A stretch of 64,000 nucleotides of DNA from Octopus vulgaris (taxonomy: Eukaryota): contig OX597824.1 in the NCBI GenBank assembly GCA_951406725.2, positions 95,356,001 to 95,420,000 on the forward strand. Reading direction: 5' to 3'. Shown here one piece after another: positions 7,095-58,310 of the stretch (position 1 is its first letter; every line of letters starts with the position of its first letter). The position numbers were made by a program, and so were the translations under genes. The notes under the pieces are model-generated. The model did not search any database, was not told the DNA's origin, and saw only the letters and a list, made by a program, of their open reading frames with translations.

Positions 7095-7348
7095 TATTCT
7101 GTTGTGTCTGGGGAGAGTCATTTTCTTTTTGTGCCTTATAATATAACACACTCAAAACTATTGAAAAGATTGCAAGATGCAACGAAAATTTTAGGAAAAT
7201 AAAAATAAGAAAAAAGTGGAAATTTTACCGGTGAGTGTGTTATATTATAAGGCACAAACAGAAAATGACTCTCCCCAGACACAACAGAATATGCTTCAAC
7301 ACACCAACTTATATAAAGAATCTTGCAAACCAAATCCAAAAACGAAAT
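7095..7348. mobile_element. Penelope-like fold-back remnant, family A, with a U3A8 hammerhead motif
   Basis: Inverted arms 7095-7154 and 7232-7291. Motif CTA-TTGAAAA-G-ATTGC-AAGAT-GCAAC-GAA-AATT-T-TAG at 7158-7193. Second copy at 25117. Confidence 0.7.
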
Positions 7349-7744
7349 ATAATTAATTACATATATTGTTACTACATCTTTAGATTTTTTTTTTCTCTCT
7401 GTCTTGAAATATTGGTTTTGTTTAGACTTCAACATTTTGCTTACCTTGTCTACCACCTGCAACACCTGCAGTCCAGAATGAATATAATATTTGCTCTGAA
7501 CTGTGGGATGTCACTGCTGACACCCATGCTATAAATCTGTCATAGTTTATATTGCGAGCTAAAACAGATATATGATTAAAAAAGGGCATAATTAGGCCAA
7601 TGGCACAAAAGAAAATATGGTGTAAAATGGGTTTGATAGATGAAATGTTAATTATTTGTATGATGTTTAATGTCATTTGGTCATGGTTAGTCCACAATAC
7701 TCTGTAGGAAGCATAAGGTAGGTTTCCTGGTTTTTCTGTCATAT

Positions 7745-8395
7745 ACAGGGTAAGATATTTGAGGACAAATTTATGCTTATAAAAAATAGATATATAATAA
7801 CAGATAACTTTATTTATCAAAAAATGCTATTAGGATAAAAATGATGTTATTCAATGAAGCCACCTTCAGCTTCAACAACTGCTTCTATATGAGATCTAAA
7901 TCAACCACATGCTCGAATCAAGTGGTCCTGGTTCATTTTGGACATTACTCTGACTATGGCATCTTTCAAAGAATCTTTGGTGATATGGACATGTTCATTG
8001 ACCTCTCTCTCAACAATGCTCCACATGTAATAGTCCAATGGATTGAGATCTGGGAAATTAGTAGGCCAAGTATTAGGGGTTATGTGATCATCAAAATTTC
8101 CAGCCATCCATTCCTGTGTTACTAGAGCCATGCATGATAGTGCAGAGACTTACTGAAACATATATGGCCTTCCATTGCATACACTCTCTATCCAGGGCTT
8201 AATTGTTTCCAGGACCTCAATATAGGTGGCAGAATTAACTCAAAGTCCTTGTAGAAAGAAGTAAGGAGGCATCACATGTCCTTCATTGTTGACAACCCCT
8301 AAAACTATGACAGTTTCAGGAAATTTTGTATGCATAACACTTGGAACTTCAGAAGGGTCTGCACATAACCATCTTTCATTTTGATCTTGGTCGAA
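7745..8395 (-). mobile_element. Degenerate Tc1/mariner (DD37D/maT-like) transposon, 3' part
   Basis: KFPETVIVLGVVNNEGHVMPP...WPTNFPDLNPLDYYMWSIVE...AVVEAEGGFIE, with a TA-CAGGGT terminus near 7745. Confidence 0.85.
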
Positions 8396-11300
8396 GTTTT
8401 TCATATAGATGTGTGTGTGTGTGTGCTTTTCTGTTTGTATTGACCCCTTACTGCTTGACAACTGGTGTTGGTTTGTTTACATCCCCATCACTTAGCAGTT
8501 TGGCAGAAGATCCTGATGGAATAAATACTGCAGTGGATTCGTTCAAGTAAAACCTTCCCGTGCATTACCTCGACATGGCAGCAGTCTAATTACTGAAACG
8601 AGTAAAAGATAAATTAATGGGCATTTTACTTTCAATTTATAATCAATTAGAAACGGCTGGAGTAACATTTAGAGACTTTACCATCTGTGTACTGGCTTCA
8701 AAATAAATTACTTTCACTGATAAGGGGCTTTGTTAATGAGCTGGTGTTACATCATCCGGATTGAGTCTAGCAAATGAGCTGAAGATATTTTAAGTTGATA
8801 ACAGTTTTATATTACTAACTATAACTAATTGGATATTAACGAAAAAACAGAAAAATAATCTCTTCTTTTTCTTCATTTTGTTATCTTTTATTAATTTTGT
8901 TAAAAAGAACTACATGAAAATTACAATACTGACAATACTAAAATGGTATACGATGAAACCACATATATCATCGTCATCGTCATCATAATTGAATTTCCAC
9001 TTTTTTCCATGTTTGCATGGGTCAGATGGAATTTGGTGAGGCCGATGCCTTTCCTGTCACCAACCATCAGCTGTTTTGAAACAAGATAGTCTTCTCCCAT
9101 AGGGAGATATTTCTTTCATGGAAGGCTGGAAAACAACGACTTCGTTTGTATGACGATGATGCTCATTTATGAACATCATGTGTAGACAAGGACACACAGA
9201 CATGATAGGCATCTTTCAATTTCTGTCTATCATATCCACTCACAAGGCTTTGGCTGGCCCAGGGTTTTAGTGAAAGACACTTGTTCAAGTGAGTCTGAAT
9301 CCAAGACATGATTCAGAGCATCTCAACCACACAACCAAACCTACACCTGTATGTCCTAGTATATGTGTGCTTCAAAATCGTACAGGTATTAATCTTTTAC
9401 TTGTTTTAGTCACTTGAGGTTGACTTTGCCTTTCATCCTTTCGGGGTCGATAAATTCAGTACCAGTGAAATACTGGGGATCGATGTGATCAATTTAACCC
9501 CTTTGTCTGTTCTTGTTTGTATAAGCACCATCCAAATGTGGTCAATGCCAGTGCCGCCTGACCCCCCCCCCATCCCCCGTGCTGGTGGCACATAAAAAGC
9601 ACCCACTATACTCTCAGAGTGGTTGGCATTAGGAAGAGCATCCGGCTGTAGAAACCTTGTCAGATCAGATTGGAGCCTGGCACAGCCTACTGGCTTGCTA
9701 CTCCCCAGTCAAACCGACCCACCCATGCCAGCATGGAAAACGGATGTTAAACAATGATGATGGTGAGTGAATCCTGCCATAATAAACATTGTATTTTATC
9801 CCTGTAGAGTTAATAAAATATTTACCAAAGAAATTGTTGTTTATTCAGAAAAATAACCTGTGATATTATAATGAAGTGAGTTAGAATCAAAATTAAGTTA
9901 TAAGAATAAAAAAACCTGAAACTTAAGTTACATTAAATGGACTGCTTTTTAAGTGTTGACTTTAATGTTAGTCTTTTTAACATAATCACAGTCTATTTAT
10001 GAAGAAATTGGATATGAATATGTATGACTGATAATAACTAGGTGAACAAGTTTACTGGCTGGGTCGGTTAATTCAAAGGTGTATAAAGTTTTTAAGATAA
10101 GCCATGTTTGGCTTTGGTTTACTTTGACTGAAAGTGACTGGATAAAAATGGATCAGTTGAGCAGCCTTTTGGAAAAAAAGAACATGTTACTGGCTTTTAT
10201 ATTAACAATTGTATGTATGTATGTATGGTACAGGCATGGCTATGTGGTTGAGAAATTTAGTTTCCAACCACAGGATTTTGGGTTCAGTCCCACTGTGTGG
10301 CACCTTGGGCAAGTGCCTTCTGGTACAGCTCTGCGTCTTGTGGATGGATTTGGTAGTCAGAAACCGAAACAAGTCCATATGTGTGTCCCCTTTCTCCCCC
10401 ACTCTTTGACAATGGGTGTTGGTTTGTTTTCATCCCCATAACTAGTCAATTTGTTGAGCAAAACCCTCTCACTCTTTCTTCCTGTTTCTTTTGTACCTGT
10501 ATTTCAAAGGGCCGGCCTTGTCACACTCTGGGTCACACTGAATCTCCCTGAGAGCTACGTTAAGGATACTCATGTCTGTGGATTGCTCAGTCACTTGCAC
10601 GTTAATTTCACGAGCAGGCTGTTCCGTTAATCGTATCAGCTGGGACCCTCGTCTTCATAACTGACGGAGTGCTCCTATGTATTGTATGTATGTATCTGTG
10701 TGTGTGTTACTGTCTCCTCCTTGTGATAGTTGTCAATGAGTGTCACAATCATGCAAGTGGTGTCTTTTGTTTCCAGTCTTCTGTGGCAACATTCCTGATC
10801 ATAGAAAAATATTACCTCACTTGGAAACAGGTGAAGGTTGGTGACAGCAAGGGCATTTCAGTTGTAGAAAATTCACCTCAATAAATTCTCACTGACCGAT
10901 GTGAGCATAGAAAAATGGACATTAAAATTCATCTCAATAAATTCTCACTGACTGATGTAAGCATAGGAAAATGGACATTAAAATTCACCTCGATAAATTC
11001 TATCTGACCGATGCGAGCATAGAAAAATGGACATTAAAAGCAATGATCACAAGTCTGAAGTTCTGCAATTCTGTGAGCAAGGATCCATCTGAACCCCCTC
11101 ATTCATCGCACATCACCAGAATAAATAATCAGATTAGCTACAAAACCAGGGAGTGACCTAGATGTCACATGGTGAACCGACTGACTGGGCACTTGATATA
11201 ATAATTGGATTCATGTTTTTGAGTGCTGTCTTATGATAAAGAACGAGAAAAGGGGGTGAGAGAGAGAGAGAGAGACTGATGTCCCCTCTGAAGAGCAATG

Positions 11301-12974
11301 TATCTCTCATCTGCTTGTTGCTGTCAAATTAGGGGTAATGGAGCAGGGGGTGTATGGTGGTGGTGATTAATGATTTGCTCTTCAAGCACAAATCTTGACT
11401 GAGTTTGAGTTTTAGAACAATATTTTTAAACTGCTTCCTTTACAGTTTTGTACGGGTTTTATTGTTTTATTAACCTGAATGCTTTTCTTTTATACCTTTT
11501 AAAAAAATTTCTTTGTTAATGTTTTTTTTAAAGTTTAAACACACACACACACACACGCACACACACACACACACACACACACTGTTAAAGAAACTAACTT
11601 CCTGGCATTCTGTGTAGAAGGACCACTGTTCACTATTAAATCCACACCATTCACAACTTCTACATTAATTTTCCCTTCCTTCCGACCTATTTTCTACCCA
11701 CTGCACTTGAAGACCTGCTTTCTTCAATTCTGTATAAACATTTCCTCCTTGTGAACTATCTGTGTCTATTTCTATATTTCTACACTAATCTTTCTTTGTT
11801 CTATTACTAATCTACATTCTGAAAAAAATACATTGTCCCCCCCCCCCCGCCACTTTCTTTATCTCCCTTACATTTCACTTACTTTGTTATTAATCCAGTA
11901 ACTTTAATGAAAACTATTTTTAGAACAAAATATTAAGATCTCTTGACAAAATTACAGTTTTTGCAGAGTAAGGGATATTTCCCCCTTCAGTGCATGATGG
12001 CTATTTAGTCTCTCAACTTGACTCAATGGAGTGTTTTACACACAAAGACTTAATTTAAATAACATTTAGCATGCAAACTTCATATATTCATATTATTCAG
12101 TTGATAAATAAATAAATACAGTTTGAAATGTCATTCACCTCATTAAAATGTCTCACATTCACTTATCTGGAAATACTTGTAGGCTTTCATACATATTTGT
12201 GCACCTTGCCTGTGTTTTTCACATTCAGTTTGAGACATTTGTGTGTGTTTGTAAATGCATACATTACTTCTGCATTTCGCTTACTCTTTTACCCTTTTAC
12301 TTGTTTCAGTCATTTGACTGCGGCCATGCTGGAGCACCACCTTTAGTCGAGCAAATCAACCCCGGGACTTATTCTTTGTAAGCCCAGTACTTATTCTATC
12401 GGTCTCTTTTGCCGAATCGCTAAGTTACGGGGACGTAAACACACCAGCATCAGTTGTCAAGCAATGCTAGGGAGACAAACACAGACACACAAACACACAC
12501 ACACACACATGCATATATATACATATATACGACAGGCTTCTTTCAGTTTCCGTCTACCAAATCCACTCACAAGGCATTGGTCGGCCCGGGGCTATAGCAG
12601 AAGACACTTGCCCAAGATGCCACGCAGTGGGACTGAACCCGGAACCATGTGGTTGGATAGCAAGCTACTTACCACACAGCCACTCCTGCGCTTATTTAAT
12701 TTCTGCATTTATTTTGAAAACTCATATGGACACAAGCATAGCTTTGTTTGTTGATAAGCTGCCTTCCCAACCATGTGATCTTGGGCTCAATCTCACTGCA
12801 CAGCACCACCTTAGTCCCCAGGCTGACCAAAGCCTTGTGAGCGGATTTGGTAGACGGGAACTGCGTGAAAACCCATTGTGTGTGTGTTTATGTGTACCCT
12901 AGTCTAGATATCATGTGATGGCTGTAAATGAGCATCATTGTCAACCAAGCGAGGTTGTTTGTTTCCAGTTTTCC

Positions 12975-13217
12975 TTCAGGGTTGGCGAAAGCGATGTGGT
13001 GGACAATGAAAACCCTGGCTGATGACAGTCAAGGCTGATCTGGAACCCAACCTAGGCCCCCATATCTATGGCGTTCACCGGAGGGGTTGGAGATCACGCA
13101 GGCGTTAACCTCAAATCGCCAGGCCTGGTCGGCATTTGTGAGAGATGCAGCATTGAGGATGAATGAAGCCAGCTCAACCCACCCCGGGTGAATGCTGTCT
13201 CAAGTCAAGTCAAGTCA
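12975..13217 (+). mobile_element. RTE LINE 3' end with a (CAAGT)n tail
   Basis: GWRKRCGGQ*KPWLMTVKADLEP...RQAWSAFVRDA...STHPG* followed by CAAGTCAAGTCAAGTCA. Confidence 0.72.
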
Positions 13218-14059
13218 TGGAAAACATGTCTGGCTATGGGGAAATATTTCCTTGCTTTGAGACAAATTTGCCTCAATAAATTCTACCTGACCCATAGCAT
13301 CATTGAAAAGCGTATGTTAAACAATGATGATGTCTATCAATATTCTGTTAGATTTGAGGTTTTTTTTCTATTTCCATCCTTTCCATATTCCAAAGTCAAA
13401 AGTTTCCATTCCATTGTCAGTAGTCACAGTAGCTAACTTAAATAGTAGTGTCACTTTTGTTAGAGAAATTTTCCATGAGGCATGCTAGGAAGAACGGTGA
13501 TAATTCCATCTGGCATTGTTACCTCTATACTTTAGACCAAGGCTATTAAATGGATCTCTTTCCTATCTCGTTTCTTTGATTACAATGTCCTTTCTTGCAG
13601 ACTGCAATCAAGCTTTAAAAACATGCAGTTGTAATGAGCTAAGTTCAATTGTTAAATGTTTCCATTTAAAAGTATAAGAGTGGTTGTAAGTAGCTTGCTT
13701 ACCAACCACGTGGTTCTGGGTTCAGTCCCACTGTGTGGCACCTTGGGCAAGTGTCTTCTACTATAGCGTCGGGCCAACCAAAGCCTTGTGAGTGGATTTG
13801 GTAGACGGAAACTGAAAGAAGCCCGTCGTATATATGTATATATATGTATGTATATGTTTGTGTGTCTGTGTTTGTCCCCACCCCAACATCGCTTGACAAC
13901 TGATGCAGGTGTGTTTATGTCCCCGTAACTTAGTGTTTCGGCAAAAGAGACCGATACAATAAGTACTAGGCTTACAAAGAATTAAGTCCAGGGGTCGATT
14001 TGCTTGACCAAAGGTGGTGCTCCAGCATGGCCACAGTCACATGACTGAAACAAGTAAAA

Positions 14060-14105
<46 letters not shown>

Positions 14106-14834
14106 GTCTGTTTCATCAGTTCTGAACATTGATACATTTTTTTGAATGAACAGTTTGCTTTCCAGCCACATGGTTTTGGGTTCAATCCCAGTGCATGACA
14201 CTTTTGTTTAGTGTCTATGCATTAGTCCCAGTCTGATCAAAGCCTTTTGAGTGGGTTTGGTAGGTGGAAACTGAAAGAAGCTTGTTGTATATATCTTTTA
14301 TCTTTTACTTGTTTCAGCTATTGTTTATCCTTTAATTTCCAATAAGTGAGATTCATCACCATTTAACATCCATGTTCCATGCTAGCATGAGGTGAATGGT
14401 GTGACAGCATCATGTTCCAGCATCTGATTTGGCAAGGTTTCCACAGCTGAATGCCCTTCCTGATGTCAACCACTTTACTGCATGTACTGAGTGCATGTTT
14501 TCATTCTACCAGCACTTTTGAGGTTACCATACACTTTGCAAGACTGTGAACCTGAAGGAGTGGGTTTGGCTTTATGCCAGGAGATGAAAGGTTAAAATAT
14601 GAGAGAAGGGTGGGGTCAGAGCAGGTTCTTGCATAAGAGGGACATGACTGCTCACATTTAGAAAAGTGAGAGAGAAAAAAATTATCATTTGGAACTGCAA
14701 AGAGATAAATATTAGAGGTGGGGCATCCAGGTAGCCCCTCAAGACACAAGGTTAGTAGCAGTGAGTAGCTGGGGTTTTGCAAGATTGTATAGGACTGTTA
14801 ATTTTAAATATTACAATCATCACCATTGTTGTCG

Positions 14835-14865
<31 letters not shown>

Positions 14866-22401: not shown

Positions 22402-22677
22402 CAAAAACCATTAGATTCACTTCAACATTTAAATTTAATTTGTCAAAATATTTTAGACGCGGCGCCTGTTCACTGAGAAAACTTCATGCATCACAAAGTT
22501 TTCTCAGTGAACAGGTCGTGGTCTGAAAATATTTTGACAAATTAAATTTAAATGTTGAAGTGAATCTAACAGTTTTTGCGTGTTTCTTAAATGGCTTATA
22601 AACACCTTCCATGCTGCAATTGTTTTCGTTCCAGCACACGATCTCAGGTCAGGTCACTTGCTATGCAAGTACATCTC
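22402..22677. mobile_element. Penelope-like fold-back remnant, family B (G3C8 hammerhead variant, stem II partly deleted)
   Basis: Inverted repeat 22402-22578 plus a unique tail shared in reverse orientation with 38789-38890. Confidence 0.68.
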
Positions 22678-22863
22678 CGTAAAGCTTTAGTCATTTGTAT
22701 TATTAATGATGTTAAGTCACAACTAAAGAATTTACTTTGTTTTTTTGTACTTAAATATTTGCAGTTGTTTTATGCTTAATTTTGTAGGGTGAAGAAAGAG
22801 AAACGTCAATCTTTTTTTAATTGCTTTTCTGTAGAAAAATATATTTTAAATAGTTTAGTAATG

Positions 22864-25116: not shown

Positions 25117-25437
25117 CATATTCTGTTGTGTCTGGGGAGAGTCATTTTCTTTTTGTGCCTTATAATCTAACACACTCACCAGTAAAATTTCCACTTATTT
25201 CTTATTTTTATTTTCCTAAAATTTTCATTGCATCTTGCAACCTTTTCAATAGTCTTGAAAAGGTTGCAAGATGCAACGAAAATTTTAGGAAAATAAGAAA
25301 TAAGTGGAAATTTTACCGGTGAGTGTGTTACATTACAAGGCACAAAAAGAAAATTACTTTCCCCAGACACAACAGAATATGCTTCAACACACAAACTCAC
25401 ATAAAGAATCTTGCAAACCAAATCCAAAAACGAAATT
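25117..25437. mobile_element. Penelope-like fold-back remnant, family A, with two opposed hammerhead motifs
   Basis: Near-perfect ~130-bp arms (25117-25249 and 25255-25381), each containing TTGAAAAGGTTGCAAGATGCAA(C/T)GAAAATTTTAGG. Confidence 0.72.
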
Positions 25438-27471: not shown

Positions 27472-27667
27472 TAGTGGCTGTGTGGTAAGTAGCTTGCTTA
27501 CCAACCACATGGTTCTGGGTTCAGTCCCACTGTGTGGCACCTTGGGCAAGTGTCTTCTACTATAGCCTCGGGCTGACCAAAGCCTTGTGAGTGGACTTGG
27601 TAAACGGAAACTGAAAGAAGCCTGCCGTATATATGTATGTGTGTGTGTGTGTGTATATATATAGGTA

Positions 27668-27700
<33 letters not shown>

Positions 27701-28157
27701 ATGCATGTATGTATGCGTGTATGTATGTATATTTGTATGTATAGGAGTGGCAAGTAGCTTGCTTACCAACCACATGGTTCTGGGTTCAGTCCCACTGTGT
27801 GGCACCTTGGGCAAGTGTCTTCTACTATAGCCTCGGGCTGACCAAAGCCTTGTGAGTGGACTTGGTAAACGGAAACTGAAAGAAGCCTGCCGTATATATG
27901 TATGTGTGTGTGTGTGTGTGTATATATATAGGTGTGTGTGTGTGTGTGTATATGTTTGCGTGTCTGTGCTTGTCTCCCCAAAATCGCTTGACAACCGATG
28001 CTGGTGTGTTTACCTCCCCGTAACTTAGCGGTTCAGCAAAAGAGACCGATAGAATAAGTACTAGACTTACAAAGAATAAGTCCTTGAGGCCAATTTTCTC
28101 GACTAAAGGCGGTGCTCCAGCATGGCCACAGTCAAATGACTGAAACAAGTAAAAGAG
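27472..28157 (+). mobile_element. tRNA-derived SINE with an internal microsatellite (head duplicated here); further copies at about 12280-12690(-), 13675-14062, 47598-47980, 53199-53545, 53806-54145(-), 60983-61407(-)
   Basis: A-box TGGCTGTGTGG, B-box-like GGTTCAGTCCC, conserved body CACCTTGGGCAAGTGTCTTCT, (TA/TG)n middle, and tail GGTGCTCCAGCATGGCCACAGTCAAATGACTGAAACAAGTAAAAGAG. Confidence 0.88.
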
Positions 28158-29107
28158 TATATAAGTTTGTGAGTATGTATGTGTGTTTGTTTTTGTCTCC
28201 TGGCCCCTCTTGACAACCAGTTCTGTTTTGTTTAATGTCTTTGTAACTTAGAGATTCACATAAATAAGCACCAGACCTACTGGGGTCAGTTTGTTTGCCT
28301 AAAACCTTCCAAGGTGGTGCCACAGCATGGCCATAGTCCAGTGATTGAAATAAATAAAAGAAGGGAAAAAAGAGGATAAGTTACTGAACAAAATCAGGCA
28401 CGGGCAGCCTTTTTTCAGGCAGCAGGCTACACGTGACTTGGCTCACCATCAGGTCGGCTGCCACTACCAAAAATATTCAAAGTAAGTTTTCATTAGGCAG
28501 AGCATTCAGAAAGTCCTGTGGGCCACAGTTTGCCCCTGGCTGCTCTAAATTATGCACAAGATTGTTATCTAAGTTTTAACTTATGTAAACAAAATAAGTG
28601 AAGTGAAACAATGTTTAATTATGAACAAAGTTTTAACACATTTCTTTCAATATGATTTCATATGGAGAATGAAGTACTCTGCTAGACTTCCTTGTTCTTG
28701 ACACACTACATGAAGACATTCTTCAATGATGAAGTCATTAAGGTTTACAACATGTTTACATACTCATCTTTATTAATTGTAGAATTTTCTTTTACAAACT
28801 GCTGTTTAAATTCTTTTGATACGTTTACAAAAGAATTTTTCTTTTTTGTAGATTTTTATGTTGAAGTAGTCGAATTGCATTTCTCTTTGCAAAATAGAAT
28901 GTTTTGACTTTGCATTTTATGGAGTTTTATTCCTTTTCTGTTTTGTTTGTTGGCTTTAACCCTTTAGCATTCAGATTACTCTGCCAAATATGTTTTTTTG
29001 CCTTCTGACTACATGGCTCGTGGGTTCAGTCCCACTGCATGGCACCTGGAACGAGTGTCTTCTAGTATAGCCTCGGGTAGACGGAAACTGAAAGAAAATC
29101 ATAGTGT

Positions 29108-29330
29108 ATATATATCTGTAAATGTAATATGTGACAATTATTCGGTAGCCAAGATAAAACTTTGAGTTTCGGATGCCTATGTAGAAATCCATGCCACCAT
29201 CTCTTCAGTTATCCAGCCATCCAAGAGATAGGGGGGTGGATTTCCACCTCGGCATCCGAAACTCAAAGTTTTATCTTGGCTACCGAATAATTGTCACATA
29301 TTCCATTTACAGATATATCTATATATATAT
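29108..29330. mobile_element. Penelope-like fold-back remnant, family C, with a canonical CUGAAGA hammerhead motif on the minus strand
   Basis: Inverted arms around 29190-29235. Minus strand 29213-29153 reads GATAA-CTGAAGA-GATG...CATC-C-GAA-ACT-CAA-AGT-T-TTATC. Confidence 0.68.
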
Positions 29331-34516: not shown

Positions 34517-34520
34517 TTAA

Positions 34521-38788: not shown

Positions 38789-39070
38789 GAGATGTACTTG
38801 CATAGCAAGTGACCTGATCTGAGATAGTGTGTTGCAACAAAAACAATTGCAGCATGGAAGGTGTTTATAAGCCATTTAAGAAACACACAAAAACCGTTTA
38901 ATTTAATTTGTCAAAATATTTTCGTAGCTTTGAAACTGTGACCTGTTCACTGACAAGACTTCTTTCTACACCAAATTTTGTCAGTGAACAGGTTGCAGTC
39001 TCAAAGCAACAAAAATATTTTTGCATATTAAATTTAGATGTTGAAGTGAATCTAACGGATTTTACACACA
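38789..39070. mobile_element. Penelope-like fold-back remnant, family B
   Basis: Opposed TTGTCA-GTGAACA-G...(G/A)AAAATATTT motifs at 38908-38956 (-) and 38978-39022 (+). Homologous to the 22402 copy. Confidence 0.7.
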
Positions 39071-39853: not shown

Positions 39854-42228
39854 AAATAAAAAAATAAAGTGCTTGTATTTAGCAATATTCTGCTCTGTTA
39901 GTAAATATTAAATGACTTTTTGAAATATTTAGAAATGCAATTGTGTCAATTGAAGCAGCAATACTAAAAATTTTGAATAGAAATCAAAAAGACAATGAGT
40001 TTACAAAATGGATTTTATTGATTAAAAATTGAGGGCAAGGCACCAAGAGAGAGAAAGAAAAAGGGAAAAAAATCATCAAAATACATGTTGACTTTAGAGC
40101 TCTAGAAGAAAGGGTCAGCCTGTACCCTTTGACATCAAACTGATTTCTTGGACAAGAAACATTATTACTGATTCTCTCCTGTAACAGATATTTTTTTGTT
40201 AGAACTTTCATAATTTAGGTAGGTACCATGTTCATGGTTTGTAAATCTCTCCCCACTATACCAATATAATAAAACATTACTAGAAAATATTACATGCATG
40301 GCAATATTTAAATTTATGAGAGTCACAAATTTAATGACTTATAAACACCTTCCATGCTACAATATTATTTCATTTAGTTAGAATTTAATTTTAGTTTTTA
40401 ATTGAAATAATTACATAAGAGGGATATCATTTGTTCATGAGTTATTTATTAAAGCTTTTCATAGCCTTACACCTTAATTTTATAACCATTATTTAAACAA
40501 CAAATCCTTTCCTATTGATGTAATACCAAAATTTCACTAACTTTCATAATTCAAAGATTACTCCTTCATTTATAGTAATACTGTATCTAAAAGAAAATTT
40601 ACATATATTTTCTTAATTAAGCTATTATTTAATTTTGGGTATTATTAATTACAGGTTATAATTTACTTCTCTTTTTAAAAATTGTTTCTAACAATGGTTT
40701 TTTAGAATACTTTCTTTTGTAATAGCCTGTGATTATTTCATATTTTAATATTTAAACTGACAGAGGCATTGAGCTGGCAGAATCGTTAGCATGCTGGGCT
40801 AGTGGCATTTCGTCTGTCTTTACGTTCTGAGTTCAAATTCCGTCGAGGTCGACTTTGCCTTTCATCCTTCCAGGGTCAATAAAATAAGTACCAGTTATGC
40901 ACTGGGGTTGATGTAATCAACTTACCCACTTCCCCAGAATTGCTGGCCTTGTGCCAAAATTTGAAACCAATATTTAAACTGACTGAACAAAAGTCTTTTT
41001 TTTTTCGTATAAAATGAACAAAACAAATGATTAAATATAGAGATTTGTTAGAAAATATCTGACTTGATGAAGGAAATCAATTTTAATTTATTATTAAATA
41101 CGACACTTTAAGGATGGTGGAGAGGCAGAATTACTGGAGTGACAGACAAAATGCCTTGTGGTATTTCTTCTAGCTTTTCATGTTCTGACTCCAAATCCCA
41201 CCGTGGTCAACTTTGCTTCTCATCCCTTTGGGGTTGCTAAACTTAAGTACCAGCTATATACTGGGGTTTGTCGGTATCAACTAATCCCTTCCCCCACCAA
41301 ATTTCAGGCTTTGTGTCTATTTTAGAAAGAATTTTCAATACAATACTTTATAAGTGAGAGAGAGGGACTTGGATGGAGCAGGCTGGATGAGGCGTTATTA
41401 CTTGAGGAGGAAGTGTTAGGACTTGGCTTCTGTGTCCTGTTAACCCTTTTGTTACCAACCCCGGCTGAAACCAGCTCTGGCTCTGAGTGCAAATGTCTTG
41501 TTTTCATAAGTTTTCAATTAAAATCTTCCACCAAACCTTAGTCACAGTTTATCTTCTTAACACTAGCTGAATGATAGTTAAGTTATTTTACTAAATTCTT
41601 TGTTATAATTAGAATTAATTGAAAGAAACACAGAGCATCTCAAAATAAATTTGGTAACGAAAGGGTTAATGAATGACATACTCTGTAAGTCTTTTATCAC
41701 GTGAATTATTCAAGACGGTTATTTATAAGCATCAGGTGTGTTGCAGTTTAGAATTGAGGATTGATTGAATGGATGTTGGCCAGTCATTGAGTGATAGGAA
41801 GCCCTTGTCTTATTTTTTTTTCCCTACCTATCACTAACTTCTTTAGCGAAAAAGTAACACAAAAGGATTGAACATTGAATGATGCATTTTATCATAATTT
41901 AAACCCAAACCATATTTAATTGTCAACCTGAGGGAAAAAAAAAATGTTTAAATTATCAACTTATGAAGGGTAGGGGGATCTATCTGTTACCATGTGTTGT
42001 GAAAAACTATGAAAAAAAAAAATATTTCTAAATTTGCAATGAGATGAAGCCAAAACAGTTGTCCAGATCAACATTGTATAATTGTCTGTATATATTTCTC
42101 TCTAATTTTATTTATTTTAAATTTACATTTAAAGTTTCATGTGCACTGTTTTTTTTTTCTATAAAAAATTAATAAAAAATTAAATTTACAAATATATTGA
42201 AGTTTTTGTCATTATTAAAAAAAAAAAA

Positions 42229-47030: not shown

Positions 47031-49088
47031 ACTCATCATCATCATCATCGTTTAATGTCCGTTTTCCATGCTAGCATGGGTTGGACAGTTCGACTGGGGT
47101 CTGGGAAGCCAGGAGGCTGCACCAGGCTCCAATCTGATCTGGCAAGGTTTCTACAGCTGGATGCCCTTCCTAACACCAACCACTCCGTGAGTGTAGTGGG
47201 TGCTTTTTACGTGCCACAGGGGCAAGCGGCCACGATCGGTTGGTGCTTTTTACGTGTCACCGACACAGATGCCGGTCAGGCAGCGCTGGCATCAGCCACG
47301 TTCGGACGGTGCTTTTTATGTGCCACCAGCATGGGTATCATAACTACAATTTCCATTTGATTTTTATTTTGATGTTCACGTACTTGACTCAATAGGTCTC
47401 CTGAAGCACAGAGTCTCCTCAACCCAAAATCCCAGACCAGTCAACTATACAAAGTTGCACTCAAGGAAGACCAGCTGCTACTAACTCAATAATAGACTAA
47501 CTTTCTGCCATAAAACTTCAACAAACAATGGTAACAGCAACATATGGCTGTATGATTAAAACCCATGTATGCCCATGAAAAATTTCACTGCATTATAGGC
47601 GTAGGAGTGGCTGTGTGGTAAGTAGCTTGCTTACCAACCACAGTTCCAGGTTCAGTCCCACTGCGTAACACCATGGGCAAGTGTCTTCTACTATAGCTTC
47701 GGGCCGACCAAAGCCTTGAAAGAAGTCCATTGTATATATGTATATATAGATATGTGTGTATATATGTTTGTGTGTCTGTGTTTGTCCCCCCACCCAACAT
47801 CGCTTGACAACCGATGGTGGTGTGTTTACGTACCCGTAACTTAGCAGTTTGGCAAAAGAGACCGATAGAATAAGTACTAGGCTTACAAAGAATAAGTCCT
47901 GGGGTCGATTTTCTCGGTTAAAGGCGGTGCTCCAGCATGGCTGCAATCAAATGACTGAAACGAGTAAAAGAGTAAAGAGTATTTAGATTAAACCTTATGG
48001 TAAGCTTTCACAATCTGAAAGAAAAGGACAGTATGCAACTGTTAGCTACGGGTGTCGACTACCAACTGGACATTTTGTATGCTCAGTCAGATGCTTCTCG
48101 GTGAGTTCATGTCCAAACAAGGAGGAACAGGTATTGCATTGCAAAATCGCAACCAGGTGTATATATGGGTTAAGAGGCACATTTTGCAACCACTTCATGG
48201 CAAGTGTCTTTTACTATAGCCCCAAGTTGACTAATGGCTTGTGAGTGAAGTTGTTTTATGGAAACTATGTGGAAGCTCATTGTGTATCTGTCTTTGTCCC
48301 TTGCTTGACAACCAATGCTGGTTTGTTTATATCCCTGTAGTGCCTGTGCCTGTACACACACACACACATCCCACTTCTGACAGCTGCTTTTATTGTAGGT
48401 GGAAACGTGGTTAAGTAGTCCACTTCCCAACCATAAGGTTTCAGGTTCAGTCCAACCATGAAGCATGTTGAGCAAGTCATCATAATCATCGTTTAACATC
48501 CGTTTTCCATGCTAGCATGGGTTGGACAGTTCGACTGGGGTCTGGGAAGCCAGGAGGCTGCATCAGGCTCCAGTCTGATCTGGCAATGTTTCTACAGCTG
48601 GATGCCTTTCCTAAAACTAACCACTCCGTGAGTGTAGTGGGTGCTTTTTACGTGGAAGCCAGTCAAGGCGGCGCTGGCATCGACCACATTCAGATGGTGC
48701 TTTTTACGTGCCACCGGCACAGGTATCACAACTACAATTTCTATTTGATATTTATTTTGATGTTGATGTGACATGTAAAAGCAAGTTAACCTCATGCTGA
48801 CCAAAGATTTGTGAATGAATTTAACAGACAGAAATTGAAAGAGATTTGTTCATGTGTGTGTGTGTGTGTTGTGTGTGTGTGTGTGTGTTTGTTGCTGCTA
48901 TGCTCAGTTGTATGTGCAGTATCGGTATGCATGTATGACAAAAGTGCTAATGTATTGAGAGGAAAACTAATGCATAAGAGGAATCAGATGTAGTATAAGT
49001 CCCAGGGTCGATTTGCTCGACTAAAGGCGGTGCTCCAGCATGGTTGCAGTCAAATGACTGAAACAAGTAAAAGAGTAAAAGAGTAAGA

Positions 49089-49206: not shown

Positions 49207-49260
<54 letters not shown>

Positions 49261-50380: not shown

Positions 50381-50880
50381 TACGGCTGCCGGTTTTCTCT
50401 GATGTCTCATTTCTATAATTTCTCCCTTGTTTTTAAACCGCAAACCTCAAAAATAATATCCCGAGATATCTGTCCTTTGTACATCTCAAATCCTAAATAA
50501 AACACGATAGTATAATCCTGATAAAACCACTTTGGCTTCTTATCCAAAGTCGGTGTTGTTCTTTTTTCCTCCCATCAATTATTAAACAATAATATTATGA
50601 TCCGAATGTTTTTATTATTTTCTAAGTTTAAATTTATGAGACGCAATCGACGTGAAGATAAAAAATGTTCGTTAGAATATTAATATTAGAAACTTTGACC
50701 GTTGTGGGTGTTCCTTTTTTATTTCTTTTTGTAGGGTCTGTGGGGTTTGTATTGGCTTCACCGACCCCACGTGTCTTTTTATTTGGTGGTTGACCCTCGT
50801 GTTCCATTTCACTCTCGTTGCTTCATGAGACACTAAATCGTTAATGTTTCCTTTTATGTTGAAGCCTGACCAGTGCCTGC

Positions 50881-50926
<46 letters not shown>

Positions 50927-52216
50927 GATGTAGATATATAGAGATATAGATATATATAGATGTAGATATATATATATAGATAGATGTATATATATATATA
51001 TAGATAGATGTATATATATATATAGATAGATGTATAGATATATACAGATAGATGTATAGATATATACAGATAGATGTATATATATATAGATATATATATA
51101 TATACACACGCATAGCGAGTTATATATATATACAAACTCGTTGTCTACCTATATATGTGTGTGTGTGGGTGCAGTTATTTAGTAATCCGCCTTTTTCCAT
51201 AACGATTCACTTGACTTGCTGGAAATAGCAGCCAAATTTCCACAAAACCAAATTCAATCGTTTTCGGAAGGAACCTATTTCATAATGTCATTCTCGTGAC
51301 ACAATCCCTTAAAGAATGACTGGAATGGTCATGGCTGGAACACCGTTAATCATTGAATTTTAGAGCTGTGTAAACAACAATTGACTCGTTTGAACTTATT
51401 GGGGTTTTTTTTTTTTCTAATGTTTTCCCTTGGCTTCAGTAAACATTTAATTATACATAATTGATAATAATTAAGATGTTTATAGTCTTAATTGTGTAGT
51501 TAAGTATTTATTACAATAATCGGGGAAATATATTGAGATTTAATTTGTACCGTGTTTAATTGTATTTCGAAACAGATTAAAAAGAAAGAAAGAAAACGAA
51601 AAGCAAGTTGGTTTTGACAACCATAACCTGTCAAACATTTTCCCGCCAAATAATGTTGGGGGATGTTTTTCTGTCGATCGATGACCCCTTATTAATAATT
51701 CTATTACAAACTTAATGAATTATTAAACGAGCAACATTGCTGTTTGTATTTATTGTGATAAATTTTGTGTGACCTACATATTGAAATATCTTCTTACTGT
51801 TCAAAAAATCAAAATAGTGAATGAATGAATGAATTAATAATATTTATAGAACGTTATGAAACTTGAATATCAAATATATTTATCATCATTATTATATATT
51901 CAGAAATATATATTTCATAATAATTAAATCTACCCTAATGTAAGATTGATTTTGTTAAAAGAAAGGAGGTCAACATGACCCACACTGTTTATTGATTTTT
52001 AACCGTTTTACGTTCTATTCTCCCTTCAGATATTTTTATTTTTGATTTGTATTTCGGTAATGTCAGATGTTAGGCATTTTTGCATCTTTAAAATATGGTT
52101 TTGTTGAGAACATTTCATCAACGTTTGCAAACCGAATATTAATTTTATTTGATCGCCATCCGCCCTCTTACTTGCCTACAACTTGTCACATATTTGTTGT
52201 TACATTGTAGTTAAAA

Positions 52217-52491
52217 TTAGGATGTGGTTAGGCCTCTGGTAACTAAATGTAGCATTTCGTCAGACCTCTGGTAACTAAAATTAGGATTTCATCAGAGCAC
52301 TTGTTACTAAACTTATGATTTCGTTAGGCCTCTGGTAATTAACGTTAGTATTGCGTCAAATCTTTGGTTACTAAAATTAGGATTTTAGACCTTCGGTTAT
52401 TTAACGTAGAATTTCGTCAGGCCTCTTGTAACTAAAATTAGCATTTCGTTATGTCTCTTGGTAGTTAATAATCGAACATTTCGTTAGACCT
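52217..52491. repeat. Degenerate 32-bp minisatellite, about 8-9 copies
   Basis: Consensus approximately TTAGGATTTCGTTAGGCCTCTGGTAACTAAAA; units abut with no unique spacers. Confidence 0.85.
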
Positions 52492-54369
52492 ATGATTAAA
52501 AGTATTCTAGTCATGTTACATCCCGAGGTATGTAGACAATGTTATGAGGTCATCGAGCTACTAAATTTTAGTACCCCAACCTGTTAAAGTTTGGGTTTAA
52601 AGGCCACAGTTATGTCGTTGTTGTGACTTCGTATAAAACGTGATTAGTTAAAGCAGTTACGAAGAATGAGCACAAGATAAAAATCTATGAAATGAAAGAC
52701 AAACTGTTTTTAATAACCCTTTTACTACAAAAATTAGATCCACTCAAGGCAACGTGACTTGCAGAAAACACCAATTTTAGTTATTGGTATGTATTTAGTA
52801 TCATTACTGGAATAACCATGAACTGTTATTTCGCTGTGAAAGTGTTAAAAGTCGGCTGTCTTTCCACTTTATAAGCCATTTGTGCAGACCCGTGACGCAA
52901 AACGAAGGATATTTTTAGTTTTATTCAATTTTCAATTCCGTTCACACACGTCGTTAAAGTGAAACTTAGCTTGAAGCTGTGAAAAGATGAAAACGGATGC
53001 GGAAGCAATAGACTACTATAAAAATACCACGAAAGAAAATTTCGGTTCAAAATTCTAAAGATCGTCAAAGTGAAAGCTTAAGAGTCGAGTACGTAAAAGT
53101 AACAAATGACTATTTTAAAAGAAACGAATTCAGGTGGGATACGTAGCCCTTTCCTTGTTGGGTTGAAAAAAAATTAAATAAATATTGTTATATATATAGG
53201 CGCAGGAGTGGCTGTGTGGTAAGTAGATGCTTACCAACCACATGGTTCCGGGTTCAGTCCCACTGTGTGGCACTTTGGGCAAGTGTCTTCTACTAGAGCC
53301 TTGGGTAGACGGAAACTGAAAGAAGCCCGTCGTGTATATGTATATATGTGTTTGTCCTCCCAACATCGCTTGACAACCGATGCTGGTGTGTTCATGTCCC
53401 CGTAACTTAGCGGTTTGGCAAAAGAGACCGATAGAATAAGTACTTGGCTTACAAAGAATAAGTCCTGGGGTCGATTTGCTTGACTAAAGGTGGTGCTCCA
53501 GCATGGCCACAGTCAAATGACTGAAACAAGTAAAAGAGTAAAGAGAGAGAGTATGTATATATATATTTTTTTTTGGCCAAAATAAACCTACGCACGATAT
53601 ATTCGTTCTCCGCTTGTTTATAATTGTTCTTTTTTTTTTAATTTTATGGCCATTGTTTTGAAATCTTTCAAACATTTGTGTCTCCAGTGATTCTGACATC
53701 CATGTGTTTCCTTCATGTCACTGAAGTGGTCACATGTATGACGAAAGACAATGGACAGAGGACCAAATAAGAACAATAATAAATGTGTGTAGAACAATAT
53801 ACAGTCTTTTACTTGGTTCAGTCATTTGGCTGTGGCCATGCTGGAGCACCACCTTTAATCGAGCAAATCGACCTCAGAGCTTATTCTTTGTAAGCCTAGT
53901 ACTTATTCTATCAGTCTCTTTTGTCGAACCATTAAATTATGGGGCATAAACACACCAGTTTCGGTTGTCAAGCGATGTTGGGGGGACAAACACAGACATA
54001 CATATATATATACATATATGACGGGCTTCTCCCAGTTTCTGTCTACCAAATCCACTCACAAGGTTTTGGTTGGCCCAAGGTTTCATGTAGTGGGACTGAA
54101 CCCGACACATTGTGGTTGGTAAGCAAGCTACTTACCACACAGCCAGTCTTTATTTTAGTAAAAAAACAAAACCATCCTGAAATATAATATCTCTTTCAAC
54201 ACATGATTTCACATTAGGAATCCTTCAAAACAGATTCATAAACGACTTAAATAAATAAAAAAAATTACAGATATTTTGTTTACAAGCATTTGCTTATATC
54301 AGATCTTCCTAAACTGGAGCCTTAAACTGATTTGATTATTTTTCACTGCAGAATTTGGGAAATTTAGCA

Positions 54370-56272
54370 TATAATATTGCCAGAAGAGAGGCTAGGAGGC
54401 AGGTTTACTTAGCCAGAGGATAAAAAAAAAAGTTTGCCAATGTTCTGCTTCATGAGGTCCAGAGACTTGAAGTGTTTCAAATTGCAAGACAGTTTGTAAG
54501 AGAAAATCATGATGTCATAGGAGAGAAATGTGTCCACATAGATTCTGGCTGTGTCAGCTGTAGTCTAGTGACCTGTATAGTCAATCAGGTGATACACGAA
54601 GGAGTCATACCCAAGGAGAGGTGTAATAGCACCATAGTCAACTGCTACAAAGGGGATACCGTAGATAGAAATAATTACAAAGGTATCAAATTGTTGGATC
54701 AGGTGATGAAAGTCACGAGAGGGTCATAGCCCAACTAATTAGGGAGAGAGTCAGTTTAGGTGAGATGCAGTTTGTGTCAAGGAGAAACACCACTGATGCT
54801 ATATTTCTGGTAAGACAGCTGCACGAGAAATTCCTAGCCAAAGATAAACCTCTGTACTTGGCTTTTGTTGACATGGAGAAAGCCTTTGACAGGGTGCTCC
54901 AATCCCTTATCTGGTGATTAATGCAGATGAGTGGTTGGTGAGAGCTGTACAAGCCATGTACAGGGATGCTGTCAGAAAGGTGAGGGTTGGCAACAAGTAT
55001 AGTGAAGAATTCCAGGTAGAAGTAAGGGTTCACCAAGGATTGGTCCTCAGCCCCCTCTTATTCATCATAGTCCTCCAGGCAATAACAGAGGAATTCAAGC
55101 CAGACTGCCCCAGGAGCTCCTCTATGTTGATGACCTTGCTCTAATAGCAGAGTCACTATCAGAACTAGAGAAGTTTCAGGTGTGGTAGCAAGGTCTAGAG
55201 TTGTAGGACTTTAGAGTCATCCTAGTAAAAACCACTGCTCGATCTGTAGAAAAGGCATCAGTAGAAACTCCATTAGCTGTACCCAGTGTAAGCTATGGAC
55301 ACATAAGAGCTGCAACAATACCAAAGGAAGGTTAAGTTAGAAGAGTTTTTATGTGTGGTAGATGCACACATGCAATAGACGCCAAAGTTGTACAGATAAC
55401 AAATTCCATCACATGCCAGGAGGAACTAGAAGTAGTTGATAGCTTCCGTTACCGAGGTGACTAAGTCAGTAGTGGGGGTAGATGCTCTGAGATCATAGTT
55501 GCTAGAATAAGAATAGCCTGGGCAAAGTTCAGAGAGCTCCTAACTCTGCTGGTAACAAAGGGTTTCTCACTCAGAATGAATGGTCGACTGTGTGTGAACA
55601 GCCATGCTACATGGCAGTGAAACATGGACCTGTGACTGCTGAGGGCATGTGTAGGCTTGAAAGAAATGAAGCTAGTATACTCCGCTGGATGTGTAAAGTC
55701 AGTGTGCATACACGACAGAGCGCAAGTGCCCTGAGAGAAAAGTTGGACATAAGAAGCATCAGATGTGGTGTACGGCACTCAATATGTTCATGTGTTACAT
55801 ATGGATAAGGGCAGCTGTGTGAAGAATGTCACACCCTAACAGTGGAGGGAACCTATGAGATGAGGTGGTGAAGCATGACCTTCAAACATTGGGCCTTACA
55901 GAGGCTATGACAAGTGACTGAGAAGACCTGGCAAACCTAGTGAGCTCGTAGCTGTGGCCGATGCCAGTGTCACATAACTGGCCCCTTTAAAAATACCCTT
56001 CAATCATCGGGCAATGTGCTGTGCTTGTGAAGACCTATCGAACCAAGTGAAACCATAGTCATGGCCAGTGTCAGCGCTGCCTGACTGGCACCCATACTGG
56101 TGGCACTTACAAGGTACTGTTTGAGCATGGTCGATGCCAGAGCCGCCCGACTACACTCTTGGAATGGTGGGCATTAGGAAGGGCATCCAGCTGTAGAAAC
56201 TGCCAAATCAGATTGGAGCCTGGTGCAGCCTCCCGGCTTGCCAGTCCTCAGTTAAACACAACGATGATGATG
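54370..56272 (+). mobile_element. Decayed RTE LINE (RT region, 3' UTR, (GAT)n tail)
   Basis: NYKGIKLLDQVMKV, TTDAIFLVRQLHEK...LYLAFVDMEKAFDRV, VHQGLVLSPLLFIIVL and LLYVDDL; ends ACGATGATGATG. Confidence 0.9.
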
Positions 56273-56904
56273 AATGTGGCATTAGAGTGCCACTGTGACG
56301 AATATTAATTGCAACCATGTGGTTTCAGGTTCAATCCCACTGGGCAACACTTTGGGCATCTTCTATTGTTCTGGGCCGACCAATGTCTTGTGAGTGAATT
56401 AGGTTGACAGAAACTGCGTGGATGTGTGTGTGTGTGTAAGCCTTTGTGCCTGTCCCCCCACTTCCACCACATGACAATTGGTGTTGGGTTGTTTACATTC
56501 GCTTAACATAGCAGTTTCAGAAAGGGGACTTAAAAGTTGATTTGTTTTTTCATTAAACAAATCAAAGCTCTGGGTGCTCCAGCATGGCTGTAGTCCAAGT
56601 TCCAGTACACTTTATGATTAACATTCTTCTTTAAAGGAACATCAGGTGACATTACCTTGAGGCCAGACTATTTGCAATATAATGTTAGTTCAAAAGGCAG
56701 GCAGAGCTCTTAAAATGTGAAAGCTATAATCAGTGGAAATGGAAAAAAATTGTTCAAATTCTTATCTAACTCTGAATAGTGAATCTCATTCTCTGTAGTG
56801 TGAATTGTTTCTCTAAACAATTTAACTCCTTTGTTGCCATACTTCTGTTAAAATATACTGCTTTCGGTGAGTCTAAAAAAGAATGGAAAATTTGTCATTT
56901 GTAA

Positions 56905-57183
56905 ACTGGTATTTGCAACCTGTGTCATCTCTTGTGAAAGGTAGGAGAGTCCAGTTTGCTGGACATTGTTGTAGTGCTGATAAAGAGGTAATTTCTCCTC
57001 TTCTCCTCTGGAAGCCATCTGCTCGCAATACCAGAGGGCGCACACTCTCCTACCCTGATGTAATCTCCAGGGATACAGGCATCCAGCAATAGGATCTCCG
57101 TAATGCCATGATGGACCATGAAGTCTGGCGTAGCATGGTAAATTCCATTGTCTCGACCACGGTCGAACAATGATGATGATGAT
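56905..57183 (+). mobile_element. RTE-like LINE 3' fragment
   Basis: RRVQFAGHC...LLLWKP...RGRTLSYPDVISRDTG...WRSMV followed by (GAT)n. Confidence 0.72.
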
Positions 57184-58151
57184 TTGGAATATAAATGGAC
57201 ATGACATTTTGATGGTAAATTTTAATTTAAATGCTTTTAAAACAAGAAATTTATGTCATAGGACCAGGGACAGTTTCAGGTGGGTTGATATCAAAAGAGT
57301 TAAAGAACTTGGGTAGTCTCAGGTTGGTTGGTTGGTTGGTAGCAAAAGTGTTAGAATGAGCAAATAAGATAGAAATGTGTTCTGAAGTAAGACACTCTGC
57401 AATGATGAACAGACTAATGGGTTTATGAAGAGGGATATGTCTTCCATATGGAATTAAACCAGCTAGTACTATGGTTGGCGATTAGTGCCAATGTCTGAAG
57501 CTTTCAATCTTGTTCACTTCCTGGAGCACTAGAAATAATTAAAAAAAAATAATGCTAAGAAGTTTGCTTCGCAACCACATGGTTCCGGGTTCAGTCCTAC
57601 TGTGTGGCACCTTGGGCAAGTGTCTTCTATAGCCTTGGGCCAACCAAAGCTTTGTGAGTAGATTTGTTAGATGGAAACTAAAAGAAGCCCATTTGATGTC
57701 CTTACAAAAATTCCTCACATTGATGAAAATGACAATGCATAAATTTAATTATAATTACTATGGTTATAATCTTTTTCTTACATATTCGTATTGTCCTTTG
57801 AAACAAACATATGTATTGAATCCTATTTTGTACTAAATCTAATTTTGATTCAACATCTTTTTCTCCTCCAATTTTCTGTAATTATTTGTAGTTTATTTGT
57901 ACATATAACGATACTTTTCAACTATATGTATTTGTGTGTCTGTGTTTGTCCCCCTACCATTGCTTGACAACTGATGTTGGTGTGTTTACGTCCCCGAAAC
58001 CTAGCAGTTTGGCAAAAGAAACCAATAGAATAAGTACTAAAGCTTACAAAGAATAACTCCTGGTGTTGATCTGTTTGACTAAAGGTGGTGCTCCAGCATG
58101 GCCACAGTCAAATAACTGAAACAAGTAAAAGAGTAAAAGAGTCGCATTCTT

Positions 58152-58310
58152 TACATTTGACGGATATTTTGTCCTCATCTTGTTTGTTGTTAACGTTTCG
58201 GCTGATATACCCTCCAGCCTTCATCAGGTGTCTTGGGGAAATTTGAACCTGGGTTCTCATTCCTAAGGTATTTTTCAATGTTGTTGTTATACTATTATTA
58301 TTATTCAGGT
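58152..58310 (-). mobile_element. Penelope-like terminal fragment, family D, with a CUGAUGA hammerhead core
   Basis: Minus strand: GACAC-CTGATGA-A-GGCTG-GAGGGTATAT-CAGCC-GAA-ACGT-T. The 3' strand of stem I is not evident in this copy. Confidence 0.6.

What the first reader, a model, noticed from the sequence alone, without database searches (positions are those of the whole stretch)
7095..58310. Four hammerhead-bearing Penelope-like families covary at the catalytic 3-8 pair (C3G8, U3A8, G3C8)
Seen in the sequence: four unrelated repeat families share one architecture of stem I, a 7-nt core, stem II, GAA, a tiny or palindromic stem III, U17 and stem I. The cores are CTGAAGA (29213-29153, -), CTGATGA (58227-58191, -), TTGAAAA (7161, 25255 and its mirror) and GTGAACA (22507, 38984 and mirrors). 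Established: hammerhead nucleotides 3 and 8 form a Watson-Crick tertiary pair, and Penelope-like elements carry minimal type I hammerheads with palindromic stem III that are thought to work as dimers. Inference: these are hammerhead variants that a CUGANGA-only search would miss, with three compensatory states in one 64-kb window. Such variants have been reported in other taxa, so the novelty would be these particular families.
Basis: partly seen in the sequence, partly recalled or inferred. Interest (0 to 1): 0.8.

Follow-up and report, generated by a model that had tools for sequence, protein, structure and literature searches.

The report
Penelope hammerheads with swapped core pair
Four repeat families spread by Penelope-type jumping genes carry a small hammerhead-shaped RNA motif whose core base pair reads C-G, U-A or G-C, all three states occurring in one related lineage; the intact motifs likely cut RNA weakly, but every copy in this window is decayed.

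Summary
The cores are at the stated places, but 0 of 9 window copies pass a strict hammerhead descriptor. The family majorities do, and shuffled DNA never does (0 in 2.56 Mb). Families A, C and D are pseudo-LTRs of Penelope-like elements (PLEs), each traced to RT plus GIY-YIG ORFs. C (U3-A8) and D (G3-C8) are not unrelated: with a young sister family F (C3-G8) they form one clade (54-62% RT identity, 100/100), with the motif at the same site. That is true 3:8 covariation in one lineage. With 3:8 pairing not required, 83 of 86 hits are Watson-Crick. U3-A8 is in print. I found natural G3-C8 in no paper held (Lünse 2017 was not readable); this scan noted G3-C8 before in phage and protist DNA. Family B is a SINE-like element with a tRNA-like head that inserts with the PLE signature (16 of 16 two-armed copies long+short); its driver was not found. 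Cleavage is untested. Insertions show no 5' ends at the cut site, and F and some B copies carry damaged motifs, so cleavage looks dispensable for insertion. Verdict: new variant of a known kind.

The parts
7096..7348 (+). Family C insertion (PLE pseudo-LTR end): inverted short arm 7096-7154, sense arm with tail ending 7348
   Evidence: family linked to RT+GIY-YIG
7158..7194 (+). Decayed U3-A8 minimal hammerhead (core U3 at 7161, H17 at 7191; G10.1 mutated to A)
22402..22682 (+). Family D head-to-head insertion; the + arm carries the long 3' end (tail)
22500..22541 (+). Decayed G3-C8 hammerhead (core G3 at 22507; 3' strand of stem II deleted); mirror core at 22473 (-) also decayed
25117..25436 (+). 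Family C head-to-head insertion; U3-A8 cores at 25255 (+, stem I lost at the junction) and 25249 (-, C11.1>U)
29110..29318 (-). Family A head-to-head insertion (both arms short); end of a Nematis-type PLE pseudo-LTR
29152..29214 (-). Decayed C3-G8 hammerhead with long stem II and an extra C at its base (core C3 at 29208, H17 at 29158; stem III mutated)
38789..39063 (-). Family D head-to-head insertion (long arm on -); G3-C8 cores at 38984 (+, G12>A) and 38950 (-, stem II broken)
58146..58310 (-). Family B, 5'-truncated copy of a SINE-like element with a tRNA-like head: last bases of head, (AAT)n, hammerhead, short 3' end
58191..58232 (-). C3-G8 minimal hammerhead lacking the 3' strand of stem I (core C3 at 58227, H17 at 58192)
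40330..40363 (+). Short family D fragment from the 3' region, no hammerhead
54195..54245 (+). Old fragment resembling the C/F ORF-start tail, no hammerhead seen

Best explanation
[quoted passage not shown] Shown: motif anatomy, ORF links, shared position of the motif in C, D and F, and decay of the window copies. Inferred: uncut RNA is the template. The PLE endonuclease nicks AT-rich DNA, and RT starts at two sites 35-64 nt apart, downstream of the hammerhead. This gives head-to-head arms, one with a tail and one without, mostly ending just 5' of stem I in C and D. Inferred: selection on the masters kept a Watson-Crick 3:8 pair, so both positions changed together, while the dispersed copies decay neutrally. 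Untested: cleavage after U17.
For: Family majorities give complete motifs, with 1,055 exact genome matches to an intact B stretch and 402 to an intact 51-nt D motif; reversed-pattern controls gave 0. Without requiring 3:8 pairing, 83 of 86 distinct hits in 1.06 Mb of family-selected DNA are Watson-Crick (29 U-A, 28 C-G, 26 G-C); shuffles gave 0. A: a 402-aa RT-to-linker/EN frame lies upstream of the motif. C: a 665-aa RT+GIY-YIG frame, and the C core lies downstream in 22 of 30 EN loci. D: a full pLTR-ORF-pLTR copy with G3-C8 in both repeats. C, D and F are 54-62% identical, clade support 100/100; the motif and ORF start align; D tail peptide versus F and C, 0 of 5000 shuffles each. Stem II differs between families by paired changes. 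A distant autonomous family E also has U3-A8 (21 of 30 GIY-YIG loci). Two-armed insertions with one long and one short end: A 12 of 16, B 16 of 16, C 21 of 21, D 18 of 20 and 14 of 15, as described for PLEs. The engineered C3G/G8C double mutant partly rescues a PLE hammerhead (PMC11167929).
Against: No cleavage was tested. 5' ends do not pile up at the cut site: within 2 nt of it lie 0 of 59 D, 1 of 110 C, 0 of 28 A and 0 of 24 B arms not chosen by the query. The youngest family, F, has C in place of A9 in 6 of 9 distinct sequences, and 10 of 30 B copies share loss of stem I. C has only a 3-bp stem I, and stem III self-duplex energies are weak for C (+2.2) and D (-0.2 kcal/mol). Only about three independent 3:8 changes are seen; copy counts are not independent events. 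The order of branching in C/D/F is unresolved. Stem II variation within D is independent CpG decay, not covariation (Fisher p=0.15). Rfam finds none of the motifs. B's driver element was not found.
Confidence: 0.7

Rival explanations
1. The motifs are real PLE hammerhead homologues but no longer cut; the fold is kept for another role (RT binding, promoter or splice context), or the paired states are relics.
For: No insertion 5' ends at the cut site; F amplifies with C9; B copies lacking stem I are common; cleavage was not needed for insertion in vitro in PMC11167929; min-HHRs cut poorly in PMC4209133.
Against: The 3:8 pair is a tertiary pair of the active conformation (PMC3884650). All masters seen keep it Watson-Crick across three states, and G5, G12, A13, A14 and U-H are kept in the majorities.
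Confidence: 0.22
2. Family B is not one element: PLE pseudo-LTR ends insert repeatedly into the (AAT)n tail of an unrelated tRNA SINE.
For: PLEs prefer AT-rich targets; other elements do sit in B's (AAT)n (L095, L118); 12 of 30 copies lack the head within 330 nt; ARAGORN at default and Rfam do not call the head.
Against: In L094, L097, L108 and L111 head and tail are inverted together. The head is the same in 18 of 30 copies, with A and B boxes 45 nt apart in 12 of the 14 copies where both were matched. The two units checked have no run of four T. In loci not chosen for B, 3 of 5 places have the head and 2 are truncated.
Confidence: 0.06
3. The palindromes are MITE or foldback DNA elements, and the hammerhead likeness is chance.
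For: The window copies are long palindromes that fail the descriptor; Rfam returns only hairpin noise.
Against: Arms are asymmetric with a fixed tail; the same sequence flanks RT+GIY-YIG ORFs; the descriptor never hits shuffles.
Confidence: 0.02

Closest known systems
Minimal type I hammerheads (min-HHRs) of metazoan PLEs, including the U3-A8 variant of Schistosoma Cercyon elements (Cervera & de la Peña 2014, PMC4209133)
   Same: Position in pseudo-LTRs; extra nucleotide between 9 and 10.1 (B, C, D); G10.1-C11.1; palindromic stem III; short stem I; thousands of dispersed truncated copies; U3-A8 state (C, E).
   Different: G3-C8 in family D is not among the variants in the text read or the supplement passages seen. 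Three states are placed in one clade. A has an extra C on the 3' side of stem II; F has C9.
Poseidon PAc element of Anolis (Frangieh et al. 2024, PMC11167929)
   Same: Two RT start sites that define the tail; AT-rich targets; uncut RNA as template; C3G/G8C partly rescues a protein-assisted hammerhead.
   Different: There G3-C8 is an engineered mutant; here it is the natural state of a family. Tails are 35-64 nt. C/D/F have a CxxxxCxxC linker before the endonuclease.
Natural hammerhead core variants (Perreault et al. 2011, PMC3088659)
   Same: Natural covariation of C3-G8 to U3-A8.
   Different: In the passages read, G3-C8 is not reported, and the variant examples named are phage and bacterial.
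Non-autonomous PLE passengers: metazoan non-LTR retrozymes (PMC7761336; bioRxiv 10.64898/2026.07.22.740005) and Chlamys MRC1 (PMC8557442); tRNA-derived SINEs
   Same: Short non-coding elements thought to borrow PLE machinery; a hammerhead in retrozymes; a Pol III-type head as in SINEs.
   Different: Family B joins a tRNA-like head to a min-HHR and a PLE tail and inserts head-to-head. It is dispersed rather than tandem and has no poly(A) tail. I found no such element described.

Membership tests
PLE minimal type I hammerhead | Core N3-UGA-N-N8-A with Watson-Crick 3:8, GAAA, U-H | tested here: met
   Family majorities; 83 of 86 hits Watson-Crick. Several window copies have lost G12 or stems.
PLE minimal type I hammerhead | Stem I, stem II closed by G10.1-C11.1, palindromic stem III | tested here: met
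   20/29 A, 5/30 B, 4/30 C, 26/59 D pass; predicted folds of intact C and D copies match stems I and II. C stem I is only 3 bp; A has an extra C. Window copies 0 of 9.
PLE minimal type I hammerhead | Located in the pseudo-LTR of an RT+GIY-YIG element | tested here: met
   A, C, D. Not shown for B, whose driver was not found.
PLE minimal type I hammerhead | Self-cleavage after H17, as a dimer or with protein help | not testable with these tools
   No assay; only contigs were available; no 5'-end pile-up at the site in DNA copies.
Rfam hammerhead models | Match to a curated covariance model | tested here: not met
   No hammerhead hit in the window at E<=5, in 11 loci at E<=10 or in one B region.
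EN+ Penelope-like elements (A, C, D) | PLE-type RT followed by C-terminal GIY-YIG endonuclease | tested here: met
   C: GIY-YIG E=1e-6, RVT_1 weak at E=0.008. D is 54-57% identical to C and F across RT and EN. A: RT motifs by eye and tblastn E about 1e-4 to other PLEs, GIY-YIG E=0.17.
EN+ Penelope-like elements (A, C, D) | Pseudo-LTRs, inverted 5'-truncated arm, one-sided tail | tested here: met
   pLTR-ORF-pLTR in D and F; long+short arms.
Named PLE clade (Neptune for C/D/F and E; Nematis for A) | Placement among reference RTs | not tested
   No reference sequences in session. CxxxxCxxC linker seen in C, D, F and E; the Nematis label for A rests on recalled motifs.
tRNA-derived SINE (family B) | tRNA-derived head with A and B boxes | tested here: inconclusive
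   Boxes at tRNA spacing, 45 nt in 12 of 14. ARAGORN default 0 of 12 loci; 3 calls in 30 regions at a lowered score; none on the majority head; no Rfam tRNA hit.
tRNA-derived SINE (family B) | 3' end shared with a LINE partner, simple-repeat or A tail | tested here: not met
   Two fixed 3' ends about 35 nt apart and inverted arms (16 of 16) instead. It works like a SINE but inserts like a PLE.
Non-LTR retrozyme (family B) | Tandem repeats with a hammerhead in each unit | tested here: not met
   The 30 copies examined are single or head-to-head.

The most novel reading that the evidence does not exclude
An animal retrotransposon lineage has fixed a working natural G3-C8 hammerhead beside U3-A8 and C3-G8 sisters, giving an evolutionary series for the catalytic pair; the same genome holds a tRNA-headed SINE driven by Penelope machinery instead of a LINE.
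Probability: 0.4. Interest if true: 0.72.

Novelty: new variant of a known kind. Interest (0 to 1): 0.55.

Why it matters
Whether PLE hammerheads cut in vivo, and why they are kept, is open. Three Watson-Crick states at one homologous site are comparative evidence that the active-state 3:8 pair was under selection in the masters. The clade offers a natural test panel: C-G, U-A, G-C, and a young family with C9 and intact ORFs. G3-C8 motifs escape both CUGANGA and UUGANAA descriptors and Rfam, so ribozyme counts in animal genomes are probably too low. Family B would extend SINE biology to a third class of driver.

Tried and rejected
Rfam scans found no hammerhead or tRNA. Stem II covariation within D was rejected as independent CpG decay. 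The idea that mirror arms act as dimer partners was rejected: they are antisense, and whole insertions fold into hairpins of -92 to -182 kcal/mol. A cleavage footprint in insertion 5' ends was not found. B's driver was not found among the fetched PLE loci. An exact search for D's upstream flank gave 3 places and no ORF; the link came through F's N-terminus. Expression: no holder on record as RNA was listed, and contigs cannot show ends, so this is no evidence either way. Alignment A1 had two mis-set rows and was not used. A splice-acceptor cause for the 5'-end cluster fits D but not C or F, so it was left open. Lünse 2017, Przybilski & Hammann 2007 and Arkhipova 2017 were not held.
Full report
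Setting. The window lies in a 2.8-Gb animal genome of 227 contigs. It is repeat-rich, with no open frame over 179 codons. The repeats look octopus-like to me; that is recalled and untested. I label the four families A (29.2 kb), B (58.2 kb), C (7.2 and 25.3 kb) and D (22.5 and 39.0 kb).

Observation. All nine cores are at the stated places. None passes a strict descriptor (stem I >=3 bp, stem II >=4 bp closed by G-C, GAAA, palindromic stem III, U-H; one extra base allowed on either side of stem II). Each has a specific lesion, listed under the observation check. Genome searches gave 1,056 (A), 1,364 (B), 1,427 (C) and 2,436 and 1,918 (D) first-look candidates; 40 were scored and 30 loci kept per search. 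These samples lean toward the window copies. Among distinct copies, positions 3 and 8 read C 29/29 and G 28/29 (A), C 30/30 and G 30/30 (B), U 28/30 and A 29/30 (C), G 57/59 and C 57/59 (D); the anchors used included the core and allowed four mismatches. 20/29, 5/30, 4/30 and 26/59 pass the descriptor. C passes rarely because the inversion junction often removes stem I; B because of CpG decay and a shared deletion. Forty dinucleotide shuffles of the window (2.56 Mb) gave no hit, with or without the 3:8 rule. Exact counts: 1,055 matches to an intact B stretch and 402 to an intact D motif, reversed controls 0. In contigs of four runs under four organism labels, no other base reached 10% at D positions 3-9; these descend from the same expansion and are not independent support.

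Links to PLE genes. A: one copy runs upstream into a 402-aa frame with RT motifs, linker and the start of an endonuclease; Pfam support is weak (GIY-YIG E=0.17), and the Nematis label rests on recalled motifs. C: an endonuclease remnant upstream of one copy (GIY-YIG E=1e-6) retrieved 30 loci, 22 with the C core downstream (21 U-A, 1 C-A); one has a 665-aa RT+EN frame. Searching with C's RT found a very young sister family F with intact 1,312-aa frames between two pseudo-LTRs. Searching with F's N-terminus and reading upstream of 40 of the 150 listed hits, chosen for divergence, gave 5 regions where D runs on into the ORF. One is a full pLTR-ORF-pLTR copy with G3-C8 in both repeats. A Pfam GIY-YIG search found another autonomous family, E (781-aa RT+EN frame), with U3-A8 in 21 of 30 loci. 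B matched none of the fetched PLE loci except as B copies.

Covariation. C, D and F proteins are 54-62% identical to each other and 21-29% to E-type proteins. They form a clade at 100/100 with unresolved inner order (7 rows). Their pseudo-LTRs align with the hammerhead at one site upstream of the ORF start, and the tail peptides are homologous (D versus F and versus C: 0 of 5000 shuffles each). The long 3' ends stop at or next to the same Arg codon. The cores are C3-G8 (F, and one old C-like copy, L296), U3-A8 (C) and G3-C8 (D); stem II differs by paired changes. So the states are alternatives at a homologous site, not look-alikes in unrelated repeats. With the 3:8 rule removed, 83 of 86 distinct hits in all DNA held are Watson-Crick, and the 3 exceptions are single copies. 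These hits come from about six masters, so the real evidence is about three double changes (to U-A in C and in E, to G-C in D), taking C-G as ancestral by inference. Within D, stem II changes are independent CpG decay (8 double, 14 and 15 single, 63 neither; p=0.15).

Mechanism. Among two-armed insertions, one arm carries a tail and the other does not: A 12 of 16, B 16 of 16, C 21 of 21, D 18 of 20 and 14 of 15. Median spacing of the two ends is 64, 35, 57 and 60 nt. This is the PLE signature described in PMC8557442 (passages) and explained by two RT start sites in PMC11167929 (parts 1-2 of 4). The copies keep the whole motif, so their templates were uncut. 5' ends cluster 8-28 nt (D) and 0-13 nt (C) upstream of the core and not at the cut site; whether this marks a start site, a fold-back or an RT stop is unexplained. 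Intact C and D monomers are predicted to fold into stems I and II, but their stem III duplexes are weak, so cleavage would need tandem context or protein help, as for PAc. Head-to-head window copies fold into long hairpins and are predicted inert. Against a strict need for cleavage: F has C9 in 6 of 9 distinct sequences, including the intact young copies (three unrelated rows dropped), and 10 of 30 B copies lack stem I's 3' strand (the script flagged 11, one a false match).

Family B. Upstream of the hammerhead lie (AAT)n and, in 18 of 30 copies, a common head with A- and B-box matches 45 nt apart in 12 of 14 (box consensus recalled). Head and tail are inverted together in several copies, and the two units checked lack four-T runs. 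tRNA finders do not call the head at default settings. I read B as a tRNA-headed element carried by PLE machinery; this is an inference, and the driver is unknown.

Literature. U3-A8 is in print: PMC3088659 (passages) and PMC4209133 (parts 1-2 of 4; supplement file 2 passages, file 1 not searchable). G3-C8 appears only as an engineered rescue in what I saw. Searches for a natural case found none, but Lünse 2017, Przybilski & Hammann 2007 and Arkhipova 2017 were not held, and supplements I could not see may list it. Searches for a PLE-driven tRNA SINE found none. Non-autonomous PLE passengers without such a head are known (passages of PMC8557442, PMC7761336, PMC8969392, bioRxiv 10.1101/596502, and part 1 of 5 plus passages of bioRxiv 10.64898/2026.07.22.740005). 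I also read passages of PMC6765202, PMC6155905, PMC13282606 and PMC10886601; none described these families' hammerheads. Earlier notes of this scan report G3-C8 candidates in phages and, with an extra core base, in protist PLEs; I did not test them.

Verdict. Real, PLE-borne and partly new: a known kind of ribozyme motif with a natural G3-C8 state placed in a lineage series, plus a candidate PLE-driven SINE. Activity is unshown and the window copies are decayed. Interest 0.55.

Noticed in passing
L260:1337-1385 and 5925-5973; L261; L262: Very young PLE family F (intact ~1,312-aa ORFs, dozens of copies with the same score over the query) carries C instead of the conserved A9 in its hammerhead; older relatives have A9.
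   Followed up: partly
L153:68-3768; L155; L205: Young PLE family E with an upstream ORF overlapping a 781-aa RT+EN frame, promoter-like boxes and a likely intron before a U3-A8 hammerhead.
   Followed up: partly
L091-L120 (family B); window 58146-58310: tRNA-like head + (AAT)n + hammerhead + PLE tail; full-length two-armed copies invert at the head's 5' end.
   Followed up: partly
L095, L118 (also L105, L119, L120), upstream of (AAT)n: 3' ends of other elements sit in B's (AAT)n; the L095 one looks like a Dong/R4-type LINE end (recalled motif).
   Followed up: no
L165, hit at 5429 counted on the minus strand: A further U3-A8 minimal hammerhead with a different palindromic stem III, family unassigned (one copy).
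   Followed up: no
L296, L288, L293: Old single copies related to C with C3-G8, U3/G8 or C3/A8 cores; possible intermediates or decay.
   Followed up: partly
families C and D, 5' junctions: 5' ends cluster just upstream of stem I, next to small natural hairpins; D has a splice-acceptor-like site there. Cause unexplained.
   Followed up: partly
L211-L216: Six family C insertions at about 15-kb spacing on one contig, apparently inside a tandem segmental duplication.
   Followed up: no
window 13683-14102, 27482-28197, 47648-48012, 53219-53578 and others: Abundant SINE-like repeats and microsatellites fill the window; the B copy abuts the 3' end of one.
   Followed up: no
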